NCBI GenBank assembly: GCA_029856435.1
Contig: JAHQXB010000153.1
Location: 1-10,046, forward strand
DNA from: Candidatus Jordarchaeia archaeon
GTDB taxonomy: Archaea; Asgardarchaeota; Jordiarchaeia; Jordiarchaeales; Jordiarchaeaceae
Length of the DNA stretch: 10,046 nucleotides
Direction: 5' to 3'
Part shown: positions 24 through 9,686 of the stretch, piece after piece
How the letters are laid out: each line of letters starts with the position of its first letter
Position numbering within the stretch: the first letter of the stretch is position 1
Translations under genes and position numbers: made by a program
Notes under the pieces: model-generated
Database searches by the model: none
Told to the model about the DNA's origin: nothing
The model's input: only the letters and a program-made list of their open reading frames with translations

Positions 24-349
24 CCCTTCCCACCTCCATTTTTCTACACAAAGGTGTTAAAAGATGGGGAGATGGTTTCTCTCAAAGCCAGCCACAAAAA
101 CAGATCCCTACAAACAGGAGTGCTGCCTAAACATATGGTGTAGGGGGCTGGTTTCTAAAAATTTGGGCACAAAAAGATCTTTAGTACCTTTTTTGCGGAT
201 TGCGGTGCAGCTGATTGGTGAGCGGCTGGTTTTTAGGGGTTAGGGTCTTCTTCTAAAAGGAAAAGCGAAAAGGATCCCCTTTAAACAAGGGCGATGATGT
301 TGACTAAAGGTGCAAAAACAAAATTGCCCAACTGGGATTGTTTCTTCAA

Positions 350-385
350 AAAAAGTTTACATGAAAAACTTTTTACATATAAATA
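350..385 (+). promoter_or_regulatory. Candidate promoter region for the mtrA-mtrH / ThyA-like unit: 9-bp inverted repeat next to a TATA-like box
   Basis: AAAAAGTTT (350-358), a 7-nt spacer, AAACTTTTT (366-374), then TATAAATA (378-385), in a very AT-rich stretch (10 G+C in 361-420). Other TATA-like hexamers at about 407-429 make the true promoter ambiguous. Confidence 0.35.
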
Positions 386-501
386 GTTAATTTCAAATGT
401 ACTTGATTTATAATAAACGTCTTATAATTTCTATGTGGTTGAGGCTCGCCTCGTATTAAATAAGTATTGTAGCTCTGTCAATCTATAAAGGGATGTTATT
501 T

Positions 502-1995
502 ATGTCAAAGTGGCCATTCATTGCTGGTGACTATGTTGTTATAAACGAAAAGGCGGCCATCGCCATAGTTACATGTGGGTCTTACGATTTGCCAAAAGAG
601 TTAGCCAAATTGAGTGACAAAATTGCCATTGTGGGTTTCTGTGAGACGGAGAATAGTGGAGTAGCGAAGATTTTACAAAATTTGGCTTCAAATACAAATA
701 TTAGATTCCTCATAGTCTGCGGTGAACGTGTAGTTGGCCATGAACCGGGGCAAACTATTATTTCGCTCTATAATAATGGGATTGATGAAAATTATAGAAT
801 TATCGGAAGTGAGGGTACTATACCTGTTTTGCATCCAAATTATTTCAGGGGAGACGATCCGAATAAATTTGTTAAAAGATTTCAAAGCCAAATCGTTAAG
901 GTGGTGGATGCACGAGGAGAAACAAATGTTCAAAAATTGATGTCTATAATCAATGAACTTAATGCACAAAAAATATCTCCATTTCCTGAGGAGCCGATCC
1001 TTCCATTAACACCCAAAGTTGAATATGATTGGAGTAAAGGGATAAAGAGGTTCCAAGAAGAAAATAAAAGCTTTCTTGATAAGGGTATATCTCTATTAAA
1101 TCCCTTGATATTTACTGGAGAACTAAGAGTTTATGATATATGTGGGATTAAGATAGGCGGGCAGAGGGGGGAGTATCCCGTAGTTTTAGCTGGAACCATG
1201 TTTTATAGAGGAGATAAATTGGTGGTTAATCATAGTGAAGGCGTCTTTGATAAGACTAAGGCTGAAGATCAAATTCGGAAACAGGAGGAGAATTCTTTAA
1301 AATACGAAATTCCCTCAATGGTACACATAGTTGGAGAAACTCCTGAGGCTTTAACAAGATATCTTTTATTTGTTGCAGATATCACAGACTCACCAATAAT
1401 TCTTGATTCGCCAGTTTTGGAAGCGAGAATAGAAGCAATGGGTGTAGCTAAAGATCTGGGTTTAGAGGGTAGAGTTATATACAATTCGGTTAGCGGCGTG
1501 GATAAAAGAGAAAAGGCTATGATTGGCGAAATGGGATGTATAGAATATTCTATAGTTTTGCCCTTTGACGTAAAACTACCTTCAAGAATCAATCGGTTCA
1601 GAGAAATAATTGAATTTATGAAGGGGTTAATCATGAAGCCAATTATTGATCCTGGTGTTTCTATTCTGGGAGCAGGTTCAATAAGTGCTTTGCATGCAGC
1701 TTGGTTATTTAAGAATTGCTATGGTTATCCTGTATGTATTGGCATCCATAATCTGCAATCAAGGCTCTCTAAGAGTATCAGTGAATTAAAAAATCTGGAT
1801 TTTTCTTTTGACTACGCTCTTCCTTCCCTTTATGGAATAGATATTAATCTTTATGGTCCAATAAAAAATGCAGAGGCTATATTCAGAGAGGTGGCGGCTG
1901 TTGAAGCTGCAATTGCAGACGAGAACATAAATACAGTTGGGATTTACCCGAAGCCTCCCCATCCCTATTATGCTTTAAAACTTGGTTGTGAGTAA
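502..1995 (+). CDS. mtrA-mtrH: Fusion of an MtrA-like corrinoid-binding domain and an MtrH-like methyl-pterin methyltransferase domain; soluble, no transmembrane anchor (MtxA/MtxH-like)
   Basis: The N-terminal part matches MtrA motifs: WPFIAGDYVV, AIVGFCETENSG, SNTNIRFLIVCG, VVGHEPGQ (His codon 739-741), IIGSEGTIP. From about nt 1108 it matches MtrH: KIGGQRGEYPVVLAGTMFY, GVFDKTKAE, SPIILDS, GIHN, LYGPIKNA, and C-terminal HPYYAL. The alternative ATG is at 493; ATG 502 has AAGGGA 8 nt upstream. Confidence 0.92.
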   Translation: MSKWPFIAGDYVVINEKAAIAIVTCGSYDLPKELAKLSDKIAIVGFCETENSGVAKILQNLASNTNIRFLIVCGERVVGHEPGQTIISLYNNGIDENYRIIGSEGTIPVLHPNYFRGDDPNKFVKRFQSQIVKVVDARGETNVQKLMSIINELNAQKISPFPEEPILPLTPKVEYDWSKGIKRFQEENKSFLDKGISLLNPLIFTGELRVYDICGIKIGGQRGEYPVVLAGTMFYRGDKLVVNHSEGVFDKTKAEDQIRKQEENSLKYEIPSMVHIVGETPEALTRYLLFVADITDSPIILDSPVLEARIEAMGVAKDLGLEGRVIYNSVSGVDKREKAMIGEMGCIEYSIVLPFDVKLPSRINRFREIIEFMKGLIMKPIIDPGVSILGAGSISALHAAWLFKNCYGYPVCIGIHNLQSRLSKSISELKNLDFSFDYALPSLYGIDINLYGPIKNAEAIFREVAAVEAAIADENINTVGIYPKPPHPYYALKLGCE

Positions 1996-1996
1996 A

Positions 1997-3271
1997 ATGA
2001 GCTTCTATGGTCCTTATTTGATTCGAGCCAGAAATATAGATGTTGCTTGGAGAAGTTGCATTAACACAATCCTCGAAAAAGGAATAAAGGAGATAACTGA
2101 GGATAAAAAACAGGAAACTAGGGAAACTTTTTGTGCTACGATTCATCTAAGTGATTGGCAAAGTGGAAATTTTGTTCCAGTAAACTATATTGGGCTGAGT
2201 AAGGATACGCTCCTTGAGAGCTATATTCCCCAATATATTAGTCCTGAGAAGGGAGAACATGTATATAGCTATGGATGGGCTATGAGAAAAAGATTCACGT
2301 TTAACCAGCTGGATTACATTAAAAATCAGTTAAGTGGTGGGAAAAATGTAGCTTTTGCCCAGTTCTGGAATCCACCAACGGACATTTTAAGCACCAACCC
2401 TCCCTGTATTAACATAGTGCTTTTTCACAAATTAGGCTCAAAAATTCATTCGACTATATATATTAGAAGTAATGATATGGCCCGAGCGTATCCCGACGAT
2501 GTTGCTGGTATTTATACGGTTTTTTTAACAGAAGTTGCAAGTAGATTTGGTGGTAAAAGGGCTTTGGGCACCATAACAACAATTTCGGGGTCGGCGCACA
2601 TATATGAAACTTCAATTAATGAATTAAGACAAAGCTTTTTCGGTTCGCTACCTACCTCCAATTCTAATCCACGAATCAATAATGAGAACTTGGCTGGACC
2701 CATACTTTTAAGATCTCAAAATTTGCGTGAGGTGTTATCGGAATTAGAATACAAGTTTGCAAAGTACTCGGAGCCTCAAGAAGAAGGGCAATTTTACTTA
2801 TATCTCGGGTTTAAGTTAGAGAAAGTAGACGTTAAATTAGTAGAGCTTGAACATCAAGTAGAAGGAATTTTAAATGGAGAGGGGGAATTAGGAAAATGTC
2901 TGAGATTCTACAAAGCTAAAACGGATGAGGGGGAATCTGTTACAATCGATCAAATAAAAATGGCTAAAAGAAAATTAGAGGAATCAAAGCTGAGTAGAAG
3001 AATAGTTATTACTCCTAATAATCCTTGGGAAAAAAAATATGATTTAAACCCTCTGGTTATACAATTTTTGGTAAGGCAGGGACGGCTTTTCACATCGGCG
3101 TTTTTCGCAAACTACTCAATTGAACAAGTCCCATTGGGAATCTTTTTAATTAGAGCAATTCAAAAGGAGATACTGAATGGAAATAAAATCAGTATAGATC
3201 CTACTGCGTTCTTCTTTATGCCCTGTATAAATGACTCAAGGAGTGTAAAGTTCTCAGATATACTCAGTTAA
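1997..3271 (+). CDS. Thymidylate synthase (ThyA)/pyrimidine hydroxymethylase-family protein with two tandem TS folds; domain 1 catalytic-looking, domain 2 degenerate
   Basis: Domain 1 has YSYGWAMR, NQLDYI, FWNP, NPPC (Cys codon 2405-2407), RSND (2465-2476) and SAHIYE. Domain 2 (from about 2696) has GPILLRSQN, LGKCLRFY, IDQI, SRRIVIT and IQFLVRQGRL. ATG 1997 sits 1 nt after the upstream TAA and is preferred over the TTG at 1982 in the ORF track. Confidence 0.85.
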   Translation: MSFYGPYLIRARNIDVAWRSCINTILEKGIKEITEDKKQETRETFCATIHLSDWQSGNFVPVNYIGLSKDTLLESYIPQYISPEKGEHVYSYGWAMRKRFTFNQLDYIKNQLSGGKNVAFAQFWNPPTDILSTNPPCINIVLFHKLGSKIHSTIYIRSNDMARAYPDDVAGIYTVFLTEVASRFGGKRALGTITTISGSAHIYETSINELRQSFFGSLPTSNSNPRINNENLAGPILLRSQNLREVLSELEYKFAKYSEPQEEGQFYLYLGFKLEKVDVKLVELEHQVEGILNGEGELGKCLRFYKAKTDEGESVTIDQIKMAKRKLEESKLSRRIVITPNNPWEKKYDLNPLVIQFLVRQGRLFTSAFFANYSIEQVPLGIFLIRAIQKEILNGNKISIDPTAFFFMPCINDSRSVKFSDILS

Positions 3272-3514
3272 GGGTGAAACATTTTAGAAAAGCGCCCTGC
3301 ATAAATAAATAAAGAATTTTGACTTGTACTTTCTTTTAATGATTGTGAAAAGCACTGTTGGTTAAGGATATATTTAAAAAAAATGTTAGGATATCGTGAA
3401 TATATATAAGTTATGCTTAATAAAAGATATAAACTGCGTAGTGGATACATTATTATTGCTATGTGTGAGATTGGTATTTCTAGTATTCAGTTTATTCATA
3501 GGTGTTATAAAATA

Positions 3515-3521
3515 AGGAGGT
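3515..3521 (+). promoter_or_regulatory. Shine-Dalgarno site of psmA
   Basis: AGGAGGT 9 nt upstream of ATG 3531. A TATA-like TATATATAAG at 3401-3410 in the AT-rich intergenic region is a possible promoter. Confidence 0.7.
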
Positions 3522-3530
3522 AGAAGTGTA

Positions 3531-4262
3531 ATGTTTGCTGCTCCTGGATTGGGCTATGATCGCGCTATAACCATTTTCTCCCCAGATGGGAGGCTTTTTC
3601 AGGTGGAGTACGCAATTGAAGCCGTACGTCGAGGCACCACCGCTATTGGTGTAAGATGTAAAGAGGGCGTGGTGCTTGCAGTAGAGAAGAGGGTTTTAGC
3701 CCTTCAAGACCCCGAGAGTGTAGAAAAAATTTTTGTCATTGATGAGCATATTGGAACCGCCATCGCGGGATTAACAGCTGATGCACGAGTTCTTGTAAAT
3801 CAAGCTAGGATTCAGGCCCAAGTTAACCGTCTCACATACGATGAGCCTATTACTGTTGAAAGTTTAACCAGATACATTGGTGACACTAAACAAATGTATA
3901 CTCAGCATGCTGGCGTTAGACCGTTCGGAGTTTCCTTTCTGATAGCAGGTGTAGATGAACTGGGTCCCAAATTATTTATGACCGATCCTTCTGGGACTTA
4001 CTGGTCTTATTGGGCAGCCGCAATAGGTAGTGGTTCTCAGGCCGCTAAAGAAGTTCTGGAAAAAGAGTATAAGAAAGATATGGGGCTTGAGGATTCTATT
4101 AAACTATCTCTCAAGGCTTTAAATCAGGTGTTAGAGTCTGAACTTGATCCCTCAAAAGTTGAAGTTGCGGTGGTGGATGTTAAATCGAGAATTTTCAGGA
4201 GACTGTCCTCTAGCGAAGTTCAAAGTTATATCAATGAGGTTAGAAAGTCTGGTGGAAGTTAG
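3531..4262 (+). CDS. psmA: 20S proteasome subunit alpha
   Basis: Alpha-subunit signature [21 protein letters not shown], plus [25 protein letters not shown] and DPSG; 243 aa. Confidence 0.98.
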
Positions 4263-4273
4263 GACTGATAGTT

Positions 4274-4996
4274 ATGTCTGACATTCGGGGAGCGAAATGG
4301 GTCGATTTAGGTGATACAGTAATAGCCCGCTACGAATCCCATGGAGAAAGGTTTGAGATCCTTGTTGACCCTAACAAGGCTTGGGATTTTCGCCGCGGTA
4401 AGAATATTGATTTATCAGAGATATTGAAAAGCTTTGATATATTTGAAGACGCCCATAAAGGCCTTAAAGCATCCGAAGATAAACTGCTTAAAGTGTTTGA
4501 AACATTAGATATAAATAAAATTGCGCCTATCATACTAAAGAAAGGGTTTATACAACTCACTACTGAACAGCGCAGAGAGATGATGAACAACAAAAAATTG
4601 CAGATAATTAATATTCTTGCCCGTAACTGTATTAACCCCCAGACTGGACTCCCCCATCCTCCAGCAAGAATAGAACGCGCCATGGAGGAAGCAAAGGTTC
4701 AAATTGACTTGTGGAGAAGCCCCGAAGAGCAAGCAAAAGACATATTAAAAATACTTCAGCCAATAATACCTATAAGAATGGAACTCTTAAAACTGGCTGT
4801 CAAGTTTCCACCTGATTTTTCAGGTAAGGGATATAGCATCGTGGAACGTTTCGGAACAGTCACCAAACAAGAATGGCAAAGTGACGGCTCATGGATTGCC
4901 CAATTGGAGATTCCTGCAGGGCTTAGAGGCAAATTTGTAGAAACAATAAATAATCAAACTAAGGGTAAAGCACAAGTGACATTTATCAAAGAATAA
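4274..4996 (+). CDS. sdo1: Ribosome maturation factor SBDS/Sdo1
   Basis: [55 protein letters not shown] and IPAGL; canonical position after psmA. Confidence 0.96.
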
Positions 4997-5009
4997 AGGG
5001 GGTTTCTTT

Positions 5010-5687
5010 TTGACATTATATTTTAAAAATAGACAAATTGTAGTACCCGGCGAGTTACTCGCAGAGGGAGGTTATAAGCCTGGCGAAGGTACGTTTAGGG
5101 AAGGAAATTGTATCTACTCTTCTGTAGTAGGCTTGGTAGAGGCGAAGGGCAAAATTGTGCAAGTTGTTGCTTTTGAAGGAGCGTACATTCCAAAAGTTGG
5201 TGATGTGGTTATTGGAAAGGTAATAGATGTAAAGATGACTTCATGGAGAATTGACATAAATTCACCATACCAAGCTACAATGCATCCAGTAAACATTTTT
5301 GAAAGGCGTACGGATCCGTTGAAAGAAGACCTTCGCCGGTATTTTGATGTAGGAGATACACTGGTTGCGAAGATAATGGCATTTGATCGGACGCGGGCGC
5401 CTCTGCTTACCACAAAAGAACGGGGGCTTGGCAAACTTCAAGGAGGATACTTAGTAAATATTTTACCCACGAAGATTCCGCGTTTAATCGGGCGGAAGGG
5501 TTCAATGATAAATATGATTAAAAAGGAAACAGGGTGTCAGATTGTTATTGGTCAGAATGGTGTTGTTTGGGTTTCCGGAAAGAGTTTCGAAGACGAGGAG
5601 AGGGTTATTAAAGCTATAAGACAGATTGAGCGGGAGGCCCATACCTCTGGCTTAACTGATAGAGTAAGGGAGTTAATTCATAAGTAA
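5010..5687 (+). CDS. rrp4: Exosome RNA-binding subunit Rrp4 (S1 + KH domains)
   Basis: IVVPGELLA, YIPKVGDVVIGKV, KH motif PTKIPRLIGRKGSMI, GQNGVVW and C-terminal AHTSGLTDRV. TTG start with AGGGGG upstream. Confidence 0.96.
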   Translation: MTLYFKNRQIVVPGELLAEGGYKPGEGTFREGNCIYSSVVGLVEAKGKIVQVVAFEGAYIPKVGDVVIGKVIDVKMTSWRIDINSPYQATMHPVNIFERRTDPLKEDLRRYFDVGDTLVAKIMAFDRTRAPLLTTKERGLGKLQGGYLVNILPTKIPRLIGRKGSMINMIKKETGCQIVIGQNGVVWVSGKSFEDEERVIKAIRQIEREAHTSGLTDRVRELIHK

Positions 5688-5705
5688 ATCTTGTTGGTGG
5701 TCGTT

Positions 5706-6482
5706 ATGGAAGATTTTCATTTTCCTTCGCAGATAAAGTTACTAAATGAAGACAATTTGAGACTTGATGGAAGAAGATTGGATGAACTTCGACCCATTAA
5801 ACTAGAAGTCGGAGTTCTGGCAAGAGCAGATGGCTCTGCGTACATTGAACAGGGAAAAAGTAAGATTCTCGCAGCAGTTTATGGTCCGCGGGAATTACAC
5901 CCACGCCACCTTGCACAACCTGATGAGGCTCTACTACAGTGTATTTATAGAATGGCTACCTTTTCTGTAGAGGAAAGAAAGAGCCCAGCGCCGTCTCGGA
6001 GAGAAACAGAACTTTCAAAAGTTATAACAGAGGCTCTTGCTCCCGCAGTTTTTCTAAAATACTATCCTAGAGCGTCCATAGATGTTTATATACAAGTAAT
6101 ACAAGCCGATGGAGGTACTAGATGTTCAAGTATAACCGCCGCTTCCCTAGCCTTAGCGGACGCTGGAATTCCCTTGCGGGACTTGGTATCTGCTGTTGCC
6201 GCTGGAAAGATAGATGGTAAAATTGCTCTGGATTTAAGTGATTTGGAAGATAAGAACGGCCAGGCGGACTTGCCTGTTGCTATAATGCCTCGCAAAGGGC
6301 TAACTACACTATTACAGATGGATGGTATGATGACCAGAGAGGAATTCATCGAAGCCTACGAACTGGCTGTAAAGGGTTGCCAAAAGATTTACGAAATGCA
6401 AAGGGAAATCTTAATCCAAAAATATATTGATATCCAAAGTGAGGCTTCAGAGGAAGCAGATGAACAGGAAAATGGGGGATAA
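5706..6482 (+). CDS. rrp41: Exosome catalytic subunit Rrp41 (RNase PH fold)
   Basis: [40 protein letters not shown] and DGGTR phosphate/RNA-binding motifs, and the acidic EDKNGQAD motif are intact. ATG 5706 (GGTGGT upstream) is preferred over TTG 5691. Confidence 0.97.
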
Positions 6483-6485
6483 AAA

Positions 6486-7307
6486 ATGCCTCATAGTCTT
6501 ATCTCTGAAATTGAATCAAAGTATATTAGGTCAATTGTAGCTAGAGAAAAGAGGGTGGACGGCCGTGGATTAAGAGAGGTACGTCCGATAACTATTGAAA
6601 CGGGAGTGGTGGAGAAGGCCAGTGGCTCTGCTAGGGTAACTATTGGTAACACAAAGGTTATCGTGGGGGTAAGTGCAGAAATTGGAACCCCCTACCCCGA
6701 TACTCCCAATTCGGGTGTCGTAACTGTTGCTGCAGAGTTTATACCAATGGCTTCTCCCTATTTTGAATCAGGACCGCCCAGCGAAGAAGCTGTCGAACTT
6801 GCAAGGGTTGTCGATAGGGGTATCCGTGAATCTAAAATGGTAGATTTGGACAAACTCTGCATAATTCCCAATGAAAAGGTTTGGATTCTTTTCGTGGACA
6901 TATACATAATTGATCACGGTGGGAATCTATTTGACGCTTCTTCTCTAGCTGGCGTTTGTGCTTTAATTACCACTATGCTTCCAAAAACCGAAATTGAAAA
7001 TGGAAAGGTAAAATTGCTAAGTGAAAAAATGCCATTACCTGTGACCAATATACCAGTTTCATTGACCCTCGCAAAAATAGGTGACCAACTCTGTGTGGAT
7101 CCCATAGAAGAGGAAGAAAATGTTATGGATTGTAGAATTACCATTGTTTATGATGCGAACGGTAACCTAGTAGCTATTCAAAAAGGAGAGCGTGGAGCCC
7201 TAACCCAACAAGATATTTACAACGCCGTAGATATAGCTAGGGATATTACAAAAGAACTTAGAGAAAAATATATTTTACCAATTTTAAAGAGGCAGGAGGT
7301 CTCATAA
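6486..7307 (+). CDS. rrp42: Exosome subunit Rrp42
   Basis: RVDGRGLREVRP, KASGSARV, PYPDTPNSG, FESGPPSEEAVELARVVDRGIRES, DHGGNLFDAS and VDPIEEEE. Confidence 0.97.
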   Translation: MPHSLISEIESKYIRSIVAREKRVDGRGLREVRPITIETGVVEKASGSARVTIGNTKVIVGVSAEIGTPYPDTPNSGVVTVAAEFIPMASPYFESGPPSEEAVELARVVDRGIRESKMVDLDKLCIIPNEKVWILFVDIYIIDHGGNLFDASSLAGVCALITTMLPKTEIENGKVKLLSEKMPLPVTNIPVSLTLAKIGDQLCVDPIEEEENVMDCRITIVYDANGNLVAIQKGERGALTQQDIYNAVDIARDITKELREKYILPILKRQEVS

Positions 7308-7597
7308 TGCCGAGAACTAAGAAGGTAGGTATTACTGGTAGGTTTGGAGCAAGATATGGTACAAAGGTGAGAAAGCGTGTGAAAACTATCTTGGAGGGAC
7401 TGAGTACCTTTCATAAATGCCCCCGGTGTGCAACTAAAGCAGTTAAACGAGTGTCTACTGGAGTATGGTCATGCAGAAAATGTGGACATACCTTTACTGG
7501 TGGAGCTTATCTTCCAGAAACTCCTCTAGGCAAGGAAAAAAGACATATCATAGACACAGTTGCGTTAAGCTCGGAGAAAAATAAGCCACCACAATAA
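7307..7597 (+). CDS. rpl37ae: 50S ribosomal protein L37ae (eL43)
   Basis: RTKKVGITGRFGARYG, zinc ribbon CPRC...WSCRKC, and FTGGAY. It overlaps the rrp42 stop by 1 nt (TAATG). Confidence 0.96.
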   Translation: MPRTKKVGITGRFGARYGTKVRKRVKTILEGLSTFHKCPRCATKAVKRVSTGVWSCRKCGHTFTGGAYLPETPLGKEKRHIIDTVALSSEKNKPPQ

Positions 7598-7767
7598 ATT
7601 TTTCCTATCCTCATAAATATTTGATGCCCCTTCTAGCTTTAGTCTACATAAAAAGGATACAAAAAAGAACATTTTCTATCGAAAATAGGATATTGATTAA
7701 AAATTGTAACAATTTGAGATTACCGATATTTTAGGGCGAGGCGCAAAAAGTATTTGGAGTAAATTTA

Positions 7768-8013
7768 ATGAAATACAATGCAAAAGGCGTTATACAAATT
7801 AATTTGCCTAGGAATTTATTGGAAGTTGCTTTCAGAGCTCTTTTTCCTGAAGTTATTTCCGGTGCTAGCGAGCGTTGTATAGGTAAATTAAAAAGAGATG
7901 GTGACATTATAAGCTTAGAAATTAAGGCTGAGGATACGGTTGCGCTCAGAGCGGCTTTAAACTCGTATCTCAGATGGTTAAAAATAATTTATGACATTAA
8001 CGAACTTGTTTAG
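7768..8013 (+). CDS. pcc1: KEOPS complex subunit Pcc1
   Basis: 81 aa, with ALFPE and the C-terminal IKAEDTVALRAALNSYLRWL signature; usual position before prefoldin beta. Confidence 0.9.
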   Translation: MKYNAKGVIQINLPRNLLEVAFRALFPEVISGASERCIGKLKRDGDIISLEIKAEDTVALRAALNSYLRWLKIIYDINELV

Positions 8014-8024
8014 GAGGCGTGTAG

Positions 8025-8393
8025 TTGTCAGGAAATGAAATTCCCCCACAGGTTCAACATCAAATATCAATGCTGCAGCAATTGCAACAAAAATTGGAAA
8101 TAATTATCACTCAAAGGTCTCAATCTGAAATGCAGTTGAGGGAAACAGAACAGGCTTTAAGTGAACTTGAAAAAATTGAGCAGGGAAGCAGTGTTTACAA
8201 AATGGTTGGAACGTTACTGATAAAAACCCAACCCGAAAAGGTTAAGGAAGAACTTCGGGATAAAAAGGAAACACTTGAATTAAGGGTAAAAACTCTTCAG
8301 AGACAGGAAGAGCGTTCAAGGAAGCAGCTGGAGGAGATGCGGGCAAAGGTTCAGGAATCGCTTCAGCAACGAGGTTTAAGCCCGGCGGGCTAA
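8025..8393 (+). CDS. pfdB: Prefoldin beta subunit
   Basis: EIPPQVQHQI, coiled-coil helices flanking the VYKMVGTLLIK hairpin, and KETLELRVKTLQRQE. TTG start with AGGAGG at 8012-8017. Confidence 0.96.
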   Translation: MSGNEIPPQVQHQISMLQQLQQKLEIIITQRSQSEMQLRETEQALSELEKIEQGSSVYKMVGTLLIKTQPEKVKEELRDKKETLELRVKTLQRQEERSRKQLEEMRAKVQESLQQRGLSPAG

Positions 8394-8394
8394 A

Positions 8395-8685
8395 ATGAAT
8401 GAACAAAAGAAGAGAGATTTGAAAAATTTAATATTGGAGGAACTCGAGGAAGTTTGTATTCTTGCTGAGAATGAAATAAAGAAATATATTTACTCAAAAG
8501 TTCCTAAGAAAGAAGTTAACCAGTTGGAAAGCATGGTTGAATTAGGTTCAGAAGAAAATACGAAGTTAACCATTGAAATAAATCTTGAAGTTGAGTCTTA
8601 ATCTGAACAGGAAAATAAAATGTTAGCAGAAGAGGCACTGAGAGTAGCTATGAAGGCTATAGATGGAAGGCTATTAGGGTTATAA
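8395..8685 (+). pseudogene. DUF3194 (MTH677-like) family gene interrupted by an in-frame TAA at 8599-8601
   Basis: The N-terminal part (ELEEVCILAENEIKKYIYSKVPKKEV...LTIEINLEV) resembles DUF3194. The same frame continues after the TAA as SEQENKMLAEEALRVAMKAIDGRLLGL* (stop 8683-8685), ending 2 nt before the next start codon. The family assignment rests on recognition and position after pfdB. Confidence 0.7.
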
Positions 8686-8687
8686 CA

Positions 8688-9686
8688 TTGATCCTAAATA
8701 CGTTTAAAAACTTCTTCATTAATCATATTCAAAAGATTTTAATTATTTGTCACCAAAACGCAGACCCAGACGCATTGTGTAGTGCTTACGCCATAAAAAA
8801 GCTGGTCGCACACATTTTTCCAGAAATCGAATCCTTAATAGCTGCCGATGATATAAGTAAAGTCTCAAATGGGGTATTAGAGGATCTACAGGTATCTTTA
8901 GCTAAAGATATCACGATTGATATGTTTGACGCCTTTATAATCGTTGACACCAATAATATTGAACAACTAGGTTGCTACCGCTCAGTAGTAAACCTTTTAA
9001 AACCCATACTGCTCATTGACCATCACACACCCCATATATCTACAACCCAATTTACCAAGCACCTAATAATTGATGAGGCATCTACCTCAACTGCCGAAAT
9101 AGTATACAACCTTTTTAAGGAAGCGGGCATAAAACCGAGTCAGGACACTGCTACGGCTTTGCTTATGGGAATAACCTATGATAGTAAACACTTTCTTTTA
9201 GCAAACGCCTCCACCTTTAGGGCCGTCACTGATCTTATAGACGCAGGCGCGGACTACAGCGCGGTAATTGAGAGACTTAGCACTACAATGTCTAGATCAG
9301 AAAGGATGGCAAGGCTGAAGGCTATTAACAGAGCGCAAATACATGATATTAAAAATTGGTTAATTGCCATTTCACATGTAAGTTCTTATGAGGCTAGTGC
9401 CTGCAGAGCACTTATCGAGACAGGAGCAGACATAGCAATAGTGATAGCCAAAAGAAAAGAGGAAATTAGAGTAAGTGCTAGATCCACACAGAACATTTAC
9501 AAAAAAACAGGTATTCATTTGGGAAAACTTATGGAGGAACTGGGCGCCACAATTGAAGGTGTCGGTGGGGGGCACTCAACCGCCGCCGGTTTTAATGGGA
9601 AAAATAGCTATACTAAAGTTATCAAATATTTACTCAAAATAATTGAAGAAAAGTTAGAAAATGCACCACCAGGCCCTCTGGATTAA
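8688..9686 (+). CDS. DHH/DHHA1 family phosphoesterase (NrnA-like nanoRNase/pAp phosphatase or exopolyphosphatase-related)
   Basis: HQNADPDALCS, IVDT, LIDHH, STSTAEIV, GITYDS and C-terminal DHHA1 SARS...GGGHSTAAG; TTG start. Confidence 0.92.
   Translation: MILNTFKNFFINHIQKILIICHQNADPDALCSAYAIKKLVAHIFPEIESLIAADDISKVSNGVLEDLQVSLAKDITIDMFDAFIIVDTNNIEQLGCYRSVVNLLKPILLIDHHTPHISTTQFTKHLIIDEASTSTAEIVYNLFKEAGIKPSQDTATALLMGITYDSKHFLLANASTFRAVTDLIDAGADYSAVIERLSTTMSRSERMARLKAINRAQIHDIKNWLIAISHVSSYEASACRALIETGADIAIVIAKRKEEIRVSARSTQNIYKKTGIHLGKLMEELGATIEGVGGGHSTAAGFNGKNSYTKVIKYLLKIIEEKLENAPPGPLD

What the first reader, a model, noticed from the sequence alone, without database searches (positions are those of the whole stretch)
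502..3271. Two-gene module coupling a corrinoid methyltransferase (MtrA-MtrH) to a ThyA-like enzyme: candidate cobamide-dependent pyrimidine C5 methylation system
Seen: the two genes are separated by 1 nt (TAA-A-ATG, 1993-1999) and flanked by AT-rich intergenic DNA, so they look like a stand-alone operon; no other mtr subunits are present. Known: MtrH moves a methyl group from methyl-H4MPT (or methyl-H4F) to the MtrA-bound corrinoid. ThyA-fold enzymes activate pyrimidine C5 by Cys attack at C6 and normally use methylene-pterin. Inference: the module may deliver a methyl group from methyl-pterin via methylcobamide to the activated C5, giving dTMP or a 5-methylcytosine nucleotide without methylene-pterin oxidation. 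Alternatively it may supply or recycle the C1-pterin pool for the TS-like enzyme. I know of no biochemical description of such a route. I recall MtrA-like and ThyA-like domains co-occurring in uncharacterised (DUF4346-associated) proteins, which should be checked.
Basis: partly seen in the sequence, partly recalled or inferred. Interest (0 to 1): 0.85.

Follow-up and report, generated by a model that had tools for sequence, protein, structure and literature searches.

The report
B12 methyl-carrier paired with thymidylate synthase
In this Asgard archaeon and four related families, the only recognisable thymine-making enzyme is an odd single-chain "double" thymidylate synthase that always sits directly behind a soluble vitamin-B12-type methyl-carrier protein and is predicted to bind it. 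This points to an untested, possibly B12-dependent, third way of making a DNA base.

Summary
Window 493/502-1995 encodes a soluble MtrA-MtrH fusion. One base later, 1997-3271 encodes a 424-aa ThyA-like protein. Both flanks are about 28% GC.

New here:
- The ThyA-like protein is a tandem of two thymidylate-synthase (TS) folds. Only the N-half keeps the catalytic Cys137 and the R-S-x-D motif. Only the C-half keeps the Ser-Arg-Arg motif.
- The uracil-determining Asn (E. coli N177) is an invariant Asp168.
- In 201 sampled Asgard genomes, the fusion and the long ThyA-like protein occur in the same 18 genomes (5 families). They are adjacent in all 18, and the flanking genes differ between lineages.
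- In the window's genome and five closed or near-closed carrier genomes this is the only ThyA hit. ThyX was not found in any of them, nor FolA or MtrE in the five tested. Dcd, Mer/MetF-like genes and the MtrA cobamide ligands (His83, Glu53) are present.
- Co-folding supports binding (ipSAE 0.91, best control 0.00), through the MtrH domain.
- DPANN/CPR organisms carry MtrA-like-ThyA-DUF4346 fusions, but MtrH was found in only 1 of 121 sampled DPANN genomes and most of their MtrA-like domains lack the cobamide ligands.

Best reading (about 0.4): methyl passes from methyl-pterin to cobamide to C5 of dUMP. No paper I searched describes the pair. The scan has flagged the same module before on other Asgard DNA. 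The chemistry is untested.

The parts
330..492 (+). AT-rich upstream intergenic region (27.6% GC) with TATA-like runs; presumed promoter of the pair
   Evidence: The promoter role is inferred, not tested.
493..1995 (+). Gene 1: soluble MtrA-MtrH fusion (500 aa from the ATG at 493; an alternative ATG at 502 has an AAGGG motif 7-8 nt upstream)
505..999 (+). MtrA-type corrinoid-binding domain (aa 5-169). It keeps Glu53 (E-T-E-N), His83 (G-H, codon 739-741) and the G-T-I-P meander. It has no membrane anchor.
   Evidence: PF04208 2.1e-37. Alignment to PDB 5L8X/5LAA. These residues are invariant in 14 orthologues. Ligand roles come from PMC4915002.
1126..1926 (+). MtrH-type pterin-binding methyltransferase domain (aa 212-478). 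It carries the predicted docking surface for the ThyA-like protein (aa 215-348, 487-490).
   Evidence: PF02007 5.7e-58. Interface. D305, N331, D386 and N420 are shared with stand-alone MtrH; K320 and K/R487 are specific to the fusion clade.
1993..1999 (+). Junction TAA-A-ATG: 1-nt spacer, suggesting translational coupling. Orthologues have 1-2 nt spacers or 4-nt overlaps.
1997..3271 (+). Gene 2: 424-aa tandem TS-fold protein (long ThyA-like), the only ThyA-family hit in the genome
1997..2662 (+). N-terminal TS-fold half (aa 1-222), catalytic-type. Cys137 (2405-2407), R157-S158-x-D160, H201 and Y203 are invariant. Asp168 (2498-2500) replaces the canonical Asn. The Arg-Arg motif is lost (G-G-K-N).
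2678..3268 (+). C-terminal TS-fold half (aa 228-424), degenerate. Cys is replaced by Leu and R-S-x-D is lost, but S333-R334-R335 (R334-R335 = 2996-3001) are invariant.
   Evidence: AF2 pLDDT 91.7. Foldseek to TS E 3e-7. The VIA wide top 7 hits are all TS fold, Z 12-16, with the next hit at 5.6. Invariants.
3272..3530 (+). AT-rich downstream intergenic region (27.8% GC) with T-runs. It separates the pair from the proteasome-alpha/exosome cluster.

Best explanation
The two genes encode a soluble 1:1 enzyme complex that is the cell's only thymidylate synthase.

Inferred mechanism:
1. The MtrH domain takes the methyl group of methyl-H4MPT (or another methyl-pterin) and puts it on cob(I)amide held by the His-on MtrA domain. 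This is the same first half-reaction as in the methanogen Mtr complex.
2. The MtrH domain also docks the tandem TS-fold protein.
3. The tethered MtrA domain then swings its methyl-cob(III)amide to the single active site in the N-terminal TS-fold half.
4. There Cys137 has added to C6 of the pyrimidine nucleotide (most likely dUMP), making C5 a carbon nucleophile that takes the methyl group directly.
5. Proton loss and release of the Cys give dTMP and cob(I)amide.

The pterin is never oxidised, so no dihydrofolate or dihydromethanopterin reductase is needed.

The C-terminal TS-fold half is a dead pseudo-subunit. It supplies the phosphate-binding Arg-Arg pair and makes the enzyme asymmetric, so it fits one MtrAH partner.

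Shown here: gene architecture, strict co-occurrence, sole-TS status, conserved cofactor and catalytic residues, and a predicted complex. Inferred: every chemical step, the substrate and the methyl donor.
For: Linkage
- The full-length MtrAH fusion and the long ThyA-like protein occur in exactly the same 18 of 201 sampled genomes of the phylum (5 families). They are always adjacent on the same strand, with 1-2 nt spacing or a 4-nt overlap.
- Only this pair is conserved across 14 loci with at least 5 different flanks.
- Named carriers are Freyarchaeia/Jordarchaeia, Sif-, Borr- and Atabeyarchaeia.

Sole thymidylate synthase
- There is one PF00303 hit and no ThyX in the window's genome and in 3 closed plus 2 near-closed carrier genomes.
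- Dcd dCTP deaminase is present in 5 of 5, so a dUMP supply exists.
- FolA was found in 0 of 5.

Cobamide and methyl supply
- MtrA His83, Glu53 and the GTIP meander are invariant (roles from PMC4915002).
- The MtrH polar residues D305, N331, D386 and N420 are shared with stand-alone MtrH.
- Mer scores above its cut-off in 4 of 5 genomes and MetF-like genes are present in 5 of 5.
- MtrE and McrA were not found, so the usual acceptor (CoM on MtrE) has no enzyme here.

TS side
- Cys137, R157-S158-x-D160, H201 and Y203 are invariant.
- Both halves have the TS fold: N-half Z 18-22; C-half Foldseek E 3e-7, VIA Z 12-16.
- The Arg-Arg motif is kept only in the C-half.

Complex
- ipSAE is 0.91 in 3 of 3 runs, with a best control of 0.00. 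In calibration this mark was reached by 58 of 80 solved complexes and 2 of 110 mismatched pairs. Contacts agree at 72% or more and partner pLDDT is at least 89. My own alignments were used, so the counts hold only roughly.
- No solved MtrH-TS complex is known to me.
- Interface residues include family invariants: R10, H50, D53, G234 and P235 on one side; D215, K220, D299, K320 and G323 on the other. K320 and K/R487 are specific to the fusion clade.

Precedent for a biosynthetic enzyme drawing methyl from MtrA: the MesA prediction in PMC7857596.
Against: - There is no biochemical evidence of any kind.
- D160, the equivalent of E. coli D169 that binds the pterin and opens the methylene-pterin ring (PDB 1BJG title), is invariant. 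This fits ordinary methylene-pterin chemistry just as well.
- The predicted contact is with MtrH, not MtrA. Corrinoid delivery to the TS site is therefore assumed, and I could not inspect the coordinates.
- MtrA-like domains fused to ThyA in DPANN/CPR mostly lack the Glu, the His and the meander. MtrH was found in only 1 of 121 genomes of that phylum. The MtrA-fold/ThyA association can therefore exist without a methyl-pterin-to-cobamide relay.
- The invariant Asp168 at the Asn177 position is the known cytosine determinant (PDB 1NJC N229D with dCMP; T4 dCH D179N with dTMP). The substrate may not be dUMP.
- Methyl transfer from methyl-cobamide to a carbon nucleophile is rare chemistry.
- The authors of the closed Freyarchaeia genome saw fewer than 10 transcripts for the mtr genes (PMC11291895).
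Confidence: 0.4

Rival explanations
1. This is ordinary reductive methylation with an accessory partner. The ThyA-like protein uses methylene-H4MPT (or methylene-folate) like other archaeal ThyA. The docked MtrAH serves the pterin side rather than donating the methyl group. It might channel or hand over the C1-pterin, or its cobamide might act as the reductant so that the pterin is not oxidised (ThyX-like logic).
For: The pterin-contacting Asp (D160, equivalent to E. coli D169), H201 and Y203 are invariant. The docking is through the pterin-binding MtrH domain. Short archaeal ThyA and the DPANN/CPR fusions sit in plain Dcd/dUTPase-ThyA-Tmk operons. MtrH was found in only 1 of 121 sampled DPANN genomes, and most of the fusions examined lack the cobamide ligands. 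FolA is absent from all five genomes, so some non-classical pterin recycling is needed anyway.
Against: This reading does not explain why the cobamide ligands His83/Glu53 and the meander stay invariant in all Asgard fusions. It does not explain why the pair is inseparable in 18 of 18 carriers, or why Asn177 changed to Asp only in the MtrAH-coupled form. MtrH enzymes bind methyl-pterin, not methylene-pterin (established knowledge of MtrH/MeTr).
Confidence: 0.3
2. The enzyme is a cytosine-nucleotide C5-methylase. The active half methylates dCMP (or CMP) to 5-methyl-dCMP, using either methyl donor. Thymidylate would then arise by deamination, or the product would feed a DNA modification.
For: Asp168 is invariant at the position where Asn-to-Asp turns TS into a dCMP enzyme, and where T4 dCMP hydroxymethylase has Asp179 (PDB titles 1NJC and 6L18). 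The best structural matches of the N-half are dCMP/CMP enzymes: 9IQU/9IQC Z 21.4-21.9 and MilA Z 19-20, against TS at Z 18.5.
Against: It is the only TS-family protein and there is no ThyX. Dcd, which makes dUTP/dUMP, is present in 5 of 5 genomes. A CMP/dCMP-deaminase-family gene (PF00383) was found in only 2 of 5 carriers and not in the window's genome. The Z differences are within the range expected from chain length.
Confidence: 0.15
3. The two functions are unrelated and merely share an operon. MtrAH would be a methylotrophy enzyme (methyl-H4MPT to coenzyme M or another thiol, as suggested in PMC11291895). The ThyA-like protein would be an independent thymidylate synthase.
For: The published suggestion for the fusion is CoM methylation. 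The genome has three more MtrH genes and MttB/MtbC-type methyltransferase systems.
Against: Co-occurrence and adjacency are perfect across five families with shuffled flanks. The complex prediction scores 0.91 against 0.00 for the controls. MtrE and MCR were not found. MtrA-fold domains fused to ThyA arose in DPANN/CPR as well.
Confidence: 0.08

Closest known systems
Short archaeal (methanogen-type) thymidylate synthase, NCBIfam TIGR03283, within the ThyA superfamily PF00303
   Same: It shares the TS fold, the P-C catalytic Cys, the R-S-N-D motif and the S-A-H-x-Y motif. The N-half is about 30-35% identical to the roughly 210-aa Asgard ThyA.
   Different: It scores below the equivalog cut-off (113.9 against 174.55 bits). 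It is a tandem of two TS folds in one chain with one active half. Asn177 is replaced by Asp. The Arg-Arg motif has moved to the dead half. It is obligately paired with MtrAH.
MtrA and MtrH of the methanogen N5-methyl-H4MPT:coenzyme M methyltransferase (PDB 5L8X, 5LAA, 8Q3V)
   Same: The MtrA domain has the His/Glu cobamide ligands and the meander. The MtrH-type pterin-binding barrel is present. The first half-reaction is presumably the same.
   Different: The two are fused in one soluble chain with no membrane anchor. MtrE and MCR are absent from the genome. It scores below the TIGR01111 and TIGR01114 cut-offs. The partner is a TS-fold protein instead of MtrE/CoM.
'Novel MtrAH fusion' clade of Atabeyarchaeia/Freyarchaeia (Valentin-Alvarado et al. 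2024, PMC11291895)
   Same: It is the same protein family and, for CP147778.1, the same genus.
   Different: That paper treats the function as unknown, with CoM as a possible acceptor. It does not mention thymidylate synthase or the neighbouring gene.
MtrA-like-ThyA-DUF4346 single-chain proteins of DPANN archaea and CPR bacteria
   Same: An MtrA-fold domain is physically joined to an archaeal-type ThyA. They sit in Dcd/dUTPase-ThyA-Tmk operons, which links the association to dTMP synthesis.
   Different: They have no MtrH domain, and MtrH was found in only 1 of 121 genomes of that phylum. Most lack the cobamide Glu/His/meander. They keep Asn177 and their own Arg-Arg motif. They carry a C-terminal DUF4346 instead of a second TS fold.
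Corrinoid three-component methyltransferase systems and core methionine synthase MesA (predicted to take methyl from MtrA; Price et al. 2021, PMC7857596)
   Same: The logic is the same: a methyl donor-specific methyltransferase, a corrinoid carrier and an acceptor-specific enzyme. MesA is a precedent for a biosynthetic enzyme fed by MtrA.
   Different: Here the acceptor would be a carbon (pyrimidine C5), not a thiol. The acceptor enzyme has a TS fold.
T4 dCMP hydroxymethylase, TS N229D/N177D mutants, and phage dCMP hydroxylase AfhB (PDB 6L18, 1NJC, 9IQU)
   Same: They share the TS fold. Asp sits at the base-determining position. AfhB shows that short TS folds can work with a non-folate cofactor.
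   Different: Those enzymes act on dCMP in phages or mutants. Here the protein is the sole TS homologue of a cell, and that cell makes dUMP precursors through Dcd.

Membership tests
ThyA superfamily (PF00303) | Pfam model above the gathering score | tested here: met
   43.1 bits against a cut-off of 24.3, residues 88-212
ThyA superfamily (PF00303) | TS fold | tested here: met
   N-half VIA Z 17.4-21.9, about 200 residues aligned, rmsd 1.9-2.8. C-half Z 12.2-15.9.
ThyA superfamily (PF00303) | Catalytic Cys (E. coli C146) and R166-S167-x-D169 | tested here: met
   C137, R157, S158 and D160 are invariant in 20 and in 14 orthologues. This holds for the N-half only.
ThyA superfamily (PF00303) | Asn at the uracil-recognising position (E. 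coli N177 / L. casei N229) | tested here: not met
   Asp168 is invariant. Short Asgard ThyA and the DPANN/CPR fusions have Asn.
ThyA superfamily (PF00303) | Symmetric homodimer in which each subunit lends Arg126'/Arg127' to the other's site | tested here: inconclusive
   The N-half has G-G-K-N in place of S-R-R. The C-half keeps S333-R334-R335 but has no Cys. The whole-chain model has pTM 0.91, but I could not read the coordinates to check the geometry.
Methanogen-type thymidylate synthase equivalog (TIGR03283) | Score at or above the curated cut-off | tested here: not met
   113.9 bits against a cut-off of 174.55
MtrA (PF04208; TIGR01111) | Pfam model above cut-off; cobamide ligands His84, Glu54 and the GAIPF meander | tested here: met
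   128.8 bits against 25. H83, E53 and G108-T-I-P111 are invariant.
MtrA (PF04208; TIGR01111) | Equivalog score; C-terminal juxtamembrane segment and membrane helix | tested here: not met
   121 bits against a cut-off of 249.15. The domain ends near residue 169 and runs on into MtrH.
MtrH (PF02007; TIGR01114) | Pfam model above cut-off; conserved polar residues of the pterin site | tested here: met
   196.8 bits against 22.8. D305, N331, D386 and N420 are shared with three stand-alone MtrH. Their assignment to pterin binding is by analogy.
MtrH (PF02007; TIGR01114) | Equivalog score | tested here: not met
   188.2 bits against a cut-off of 271.4
Membrane MtrA-H complex of methanogens | MtrE (and the other membrane subunits) and MCR present in the genome | tested here: not met
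   MtrE found in 0 of 5 genomes. McrA not found in the window's genome. MtrB, C, D, F and G were not searched.
Corrinoid three-component methyltransferase system | Donor-specific methyltransferase plus corrinoid protein plus acceptor-specific methyltransferase acting together | tested here: inconclusive
   The first two are present and fused. The third would be the TS-fold protein, which is predicted to bind. Activity is not testable here.
dCMP-specific TS-fold enzymes (dCMP hydroxymethylase / dCMP methylase) | Asp at the Asn177 position and a cytosine nucleotide as substrate | tested here: inconclusive
   Asp is present. The substrate is not testable. Genome context favours dUMP.

The most novel reading that the evidence does not exclude
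This would be a third class of thymidylate synthase. It would be a cobamide-dependent, non-redox enzyme complex that moves an intact methyl group from methyl-H4MPT through a Co-CH3 intermediate onto C5 of dUMP activated by a TS-fold cysteine. The enzyme would be a natural single-chain, one-active-site pseudo-dimer. It would be the only route to thymine in several Asgard classes.
Probability: 0.4. Interest if true: 0.95.

Novelty: new variant of a known kind. Interest (0 to 1): 0.8.

Why it matters
Only two ways of making thymidylate are known, ThyA and ThyX, and both use methylene-folate. A complex that methylates dUMP from a methyl-cobamide would be a third route. It would tie DNA synthesis to vitamin B12 and to the methyl branch of the archaeal Wood-Ljungdahl pathway. 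It would also remove the need for a dihydropterin reductase.

The finding bears on an old open question: which C1 donor do archaeal thymidylate synthases use in H4MPT-using organisms?

It gives a function to the "novel MtrAH fusion" of Asgard archaea, which is currently read as a methylotrophy enzyme. It also matters for reconstructing nucleotide metabolism in the archaeal relatives of eukaryotes.

Even if the chemistry turns out to be classical, the protein is a natural tandem TS with one live and one dead half. That makes it a clean model for half-of-the-sites behaviour in thymidylate synthase.

Tried and rejected
- Sequence-level proof of the internal duplication: hhalign of the N-half against the C-half found the expected register but only E 0.048, probability 1%. 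phmmer of the C-half against PDB found nothing. The duplication therefore rests on fold searches.
- Longer fusions (MtrAH plus ThyA in one chain): none found among proteins of 743-2120 aa. This is weak evidence.
- RNA evidence: one true metatranscriptome (X20) has two short contigs at 95-99% identity over 487-850 and 903-1162, and one over 3465-3600. None bridges the junction. The contigs cannot show strand, level or a single transcript, and DNA carry-over is possible. X4 and X5 are probably DNA. I did not use this as evidence.
- Rfam scan of the window at E <= 0.1: no match, so no riboswitch or known RNA.
- Literature: no paper holds MtrH, MtrA and 'thymidylate synthase' together. None mentions DUF4346. 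The Asgard thymidylate paper PMC9931769 has no mention of Mtr, tandem or methanopterin.
- dCMP-deaminase route to dTMP: PF00383 was found in only 2 of 5 carriers, so I judged it unlikely.
- DPANN/CPR fusions as support for a cobamide relay: rejected after finding MtrH in only 1 of 121 genomes and after finding that most lack the ligand residues.
- I could not read the model coordinates. I therefore could not check the geometry of R334/R335 relative to Cys137 or the position of the MtrA domain in the complex.
- The search of protein representatives, the Atlas searches and the metagenome scan were not used.


Full report
**1. Observation**

The window is contig C95 of a 3.54-Mb archaeal assembly that is 97.8% complete.

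ORF1 runs 493..1995 on the + strand, with a second ATG at 502. It gives 500 aa, with Pfam MtrA at residues 5-169 (2.1e-37) and MtrH at 212-478 (5.7e-58).

ORF2 starts at the ATG at 1997, one base after the TAA of ORF1, and ends at 3271. It gives 424 aa and hits PF00303 (3.6e-11, above cut-off) and the methanogen-type TIGR03283 model (6.7e-33, below cut-off).

The flanks 330-492 and 3272-3530 are 27.6% and 27.8% GC, against about 37% in the genes.

Downstream lies the archaeal proteasome-alpha/SBDS/Rrp4/Rrp41/Rrp42/L37ae/prefoldin-beta cluster.

**2. Organism and distribution**

Close homologues are named Freyarchaeota/Jordarchaeia. The closed genome CP147778.1 (SRVP19_Freyarchaeia-1) is in the same genus.

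I searched 201 sampled genomes of the phylum with each protein. Full-length matches to the fusion and to the long ThyA-like protein fall in exactly the same 18 genomes, which span five families. In all 18 the fusion lies directly upstream on the same strand. Two incomplete relatives lack both genes.

A scan of named species genomes found the long form only in Frey-/Jord-, Sif-, Borr- and Atabeyarchaeia, LC30, and one MAG labelled Thermoproteota.

Across 14 loci only these two genes are shared, and the flanks fall into at least five different arrangements. Spacing is 1-2 nt or a 4-nt overlap. This is a self-contained, inherited two-gene unit.

**3. The ThyA-like protein**

An alignment of 20 orthologues shows these residues to be invariant in the N-half: C137 in a P-P-C motif, R157-S158-x-D160, H201 and Y203. 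S333-R334-R335 are invariant in the C-half.

HMMER alignment to solved TS places D168, which is also invariant, on the conserved Asn (E. coli N177 / L. casei N229).

The N-half has G-G-K-N where TS has S-R-R. In the C-half the Cys is replaced by Leu and the R-S-x-D motif is gone.

The AlphaFold model is confident (pLDDT 88.3, pTM 0.91).
- N-half: matches TS-fold enzymes at Z 17-22.
- C-half, folded alone (pLDDT 91.7): matches TS with Foldseek E 3e-7 and TM 0.63-0.69. In a Foldseek-independent search, TS-fold chains take the top seven places (Z 12.2-15.9), and the next hit is at 5.6.

The protein is therefore a tandem of two TS folds. One half is catalytic-type. The other is degenerate but keeps the Arg pair that, in ordinary TS dimers, reaches into the partner's active site (established TS knowledge). 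I could not read the coordinates, so the pseudo-dimer geometry is inferred.

The Asn-to-Asp change is specific to this MtrAH-coupled form. Short Asgard ThyA and the DPANN/CPR fusions keep Asn and their own Arg-Arg motif.

**4. Sole thymidylate synthase**

PF00303 hits only this gene, and ThyX was not found, in the window's genome and in five further carriers. Those five are three closed genomes and two near-closed ones.

- Dcd-type dCTP deaminase is present in 5 of 5 genomes.
- A CMP/dCMP-deaminase-family gene is present in only 2 of 5, and not in the window's genome.
- FolA DHFR was not found in any of the five.

The cell therefore makes dUMP precursors, and this protein is the only candidate to turn them into dTMP.

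**5. The MtrA-MtrH fusion**

The MtrA domain aligns to PDB 5L8X/5LAA at 1e-28. It keeps the cobamide ligand His (H83), its hydrogen-bond partner Glu (E53) and the G-T-I-P meander. All are invariant in 14 orthologues. Their roles are described by Wagner et al. 2016 (PMC4915002).

The domain has no membrane anchor. The MtrH domain shares D305, N331, D386 and N420 with the genome's three stand-alone MtrH proteins.

- MtrA occurs nowhere else in the genome.
- MtrE was not found in the five genomes searched, and McrA was not found in the window's genome.
- Mer is above its cut-off in 4 of 5 genomes, and MetF-like genes are present in 5 of 5. Methyl-pterin can therefore be made.

**6. Predicted complex**

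I co-folded the two full-length proteins using my 14-row alignments.
- Score: ipSAE 0.91 in all three runs, against 0.00 for the best of three controls.
- Calibration: this mark was reached by 58 of 80 solved complexes and by 2 of 110 mismatched pairs. My own alignments were used, so the counts hold only roughly.
- Consistency: the runs agree in at least 72% of contacts, and partner pLDDT is at least 89.

The model supports binding; it does not show it.

The interface joins the MtrH domain (215-348, 487-490) to the first strand, the inter-half linker and the start of the C-half of the TS protein (7-23, 50-53, 214-239, 253-257). It includes residues that are invariant in both families. K320 and K/R487 are specific to the fusion clade.

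The MtrA domain is not in the confident interface. This would fit a mobile corrinoid domain, but it is not evidence for one.

**7. Fusions elsewhere**

DPANN archaea and CPR bacteria carry single chains of MtrA-like, ThyA and DUF4346 (PF14251) domains, and one also has a Tmk domain. They sit in Dcd/dUTPase-ThyA-Tmk-glutaredoxin operons.

In one DPANN phylum, 30 of 121 genomes have exactly one MtrA-like hit, always inside a 315-810-aa frame. In 10 of the 12 loci examined that frame also holds ThyA.

However, MtrH was found in only 1 of those 121 genomes, and weakly. Most of the fused MtrA-like domains lack the Glu, the His and the meander.

These fusions therefore show a repeated physical link between an MtrA fold and archaeal ThyA in dTMP synthesis. 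They do not show a cobamide relay.

**8. Mechanism**

The best-supported reading is a corrinoid relay. MtrH loads methyl from methyl-H4MPT onto the MtrA cobamide. The methyl-cob(III)amide then methylates C5 of the Cys137-activated pyrimidine in the N-half, giving dTMP without oxidising the pterin.

This reading explains several observations together: the inseparable pairing, the retained cobamide ligands, the absence of MtrE/CoM chemistry, the asymmetric one-site TS, and the absence of FolA. The chemistry parallels SAM-dependent C5-pyrimidine methylases, which is an analogy from general knowledge.

Against it:
- D160, the pterin-contacting Asp, is retained.
- The predicted contact is with MtrH, not MtrA.
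- The DPANN/CPR forms lack the cobamide ligands and, almost always, MtrH.
- Asp168 may point to a cytosine substrate.

I put the relay at about 0.4. I am more confident, about 0.75, of the weaker claim that the two proteins form one complex responsible for thymidylate synthesis.

The rivals are:
- classical methylene-pterin chemistry with MtrAH as a pterin-side accessory (0.3);
- a dCMP methylase (0.15);
- unrelated functions sharing an operon (0.08).

**9. Literature and earlier scan notes**

Valentin-Alvarado et al. 2024 (PMC11291895) describe the 'novel MtrAH fusion' in these very lineages. They leave its function open, suggest CoM as acceptor and do not mention thymidylate.

Filée et al. 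2023 (PMC9931769) on Asgard ThyA/ThyX mention neither Mtr nor a tandem enzyme.

No paper holds MtrA, MtrH and thymidylate synthase together.

Price et al. 2021 (PMC7857596) predict that the methionine synthase MesA takes methyl from MtrA. This is the nearest precedent.

The scan has flagged the same module on other Asgard DNA, and related MtrA-ThyA links in DPANN/CPR. I treated those notes as leads only and re-tested their claims here.

From memory, and unchecked: an early study of Methanobacterium thymidylate synthase reported proton exchange on dUMP but no dTMP formation with the methylene-pterins it tried. If correct, the C1 donor of archaeal-type ThyA has never been settled.

**10. Verdict**

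The feature is real, conserved and undescribed as a pair. The domains are known, but the combination, the single-chain one-site TS and the Asn-to-Asp change are new. The proposed B12-dependent thymidylate synthesis is plausible and directly testable, but unproven.

Noticed in passing
window 60-300: There are three degenerate direct repeats about 77 nt apart, each starting GGSNGMTGGTTTYT-like at 67, 143 and 224 and each followed by a CACAAAAA-GATC-like stretch. They lie at the very start of the contig, upstream of the AT-rich promoter region. There is no Rfam match. They may be a decayed repeat array or the cause of the assembly break.
   Followed up: partly
window 3531-9686: This is the classical archaeal 'exosome superoperon': proteasome alpha, SBDS, Rrp4, Rrp41, Rrp42, L37ae, a small ORF, prefoldin beta and a DHH/DHHA1 phosphoesterase, all on the + strand. 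It is ordinary. Only the Freyarchaeia genus has it next to the MtrAH-ThyA pair.
   Followed up: yes
L031 (G000:C43) 488-3033, minus strand: The window's own genome encodes a 519-aa DUF6513-Pterin_bind-DUF4346 protein next to a FolE2-type GTP cyclohydrolase. DUF4346, the C-terminal domain of the DPANN/CPR ThyA fusions, therefore also ends a pterin-biosynthesis (DHPS-like) enzyme. Its role is unknown; it might be a shared docking or pterin-related module.
   Followed up: partly
and tables, family f7 genomes (e.g. G027:C26 26770-27354 and 46657-47577): In the family with the short, roughly 210-aa ThyA, an MtrH-containing gene lies a constant 18-20 kb from thyA on the same contig in many genomes. 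It often sits in an open frame of about 545 aa. This is probably conserved synteny only.
   Followed up: no
model mbecafa21e23c, residues 4-215: The best structural matches of the N-half are the 2025 phage entries 9IQU/9IQC (dCMP hydroxylase AfhB, a flavin-dependent TS-fold enzyme; Z 21.4-21.9). This shows that short TS folds have been recruited to non-folate cofactors before.
   Followed up: no
window 1993-1996: Hot-spring relatives at about 95% identity (runs X4, X5) carry one extra A in the spacer (TAA-AA-ATG). The spacer length is therefore not fixed, while both reading frames stay intact.
   Followed up: partly
L054, L055 (DPANN): A DPANN subgroup of MtrA-like-ThyA fusions keeps an N-G-H motif at the His-ligand position. 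It also has a 12-residue insert after an R-S-H-H motif in the TS domain. It may be a cobamide-competent intermediate form.
   Followed up: no
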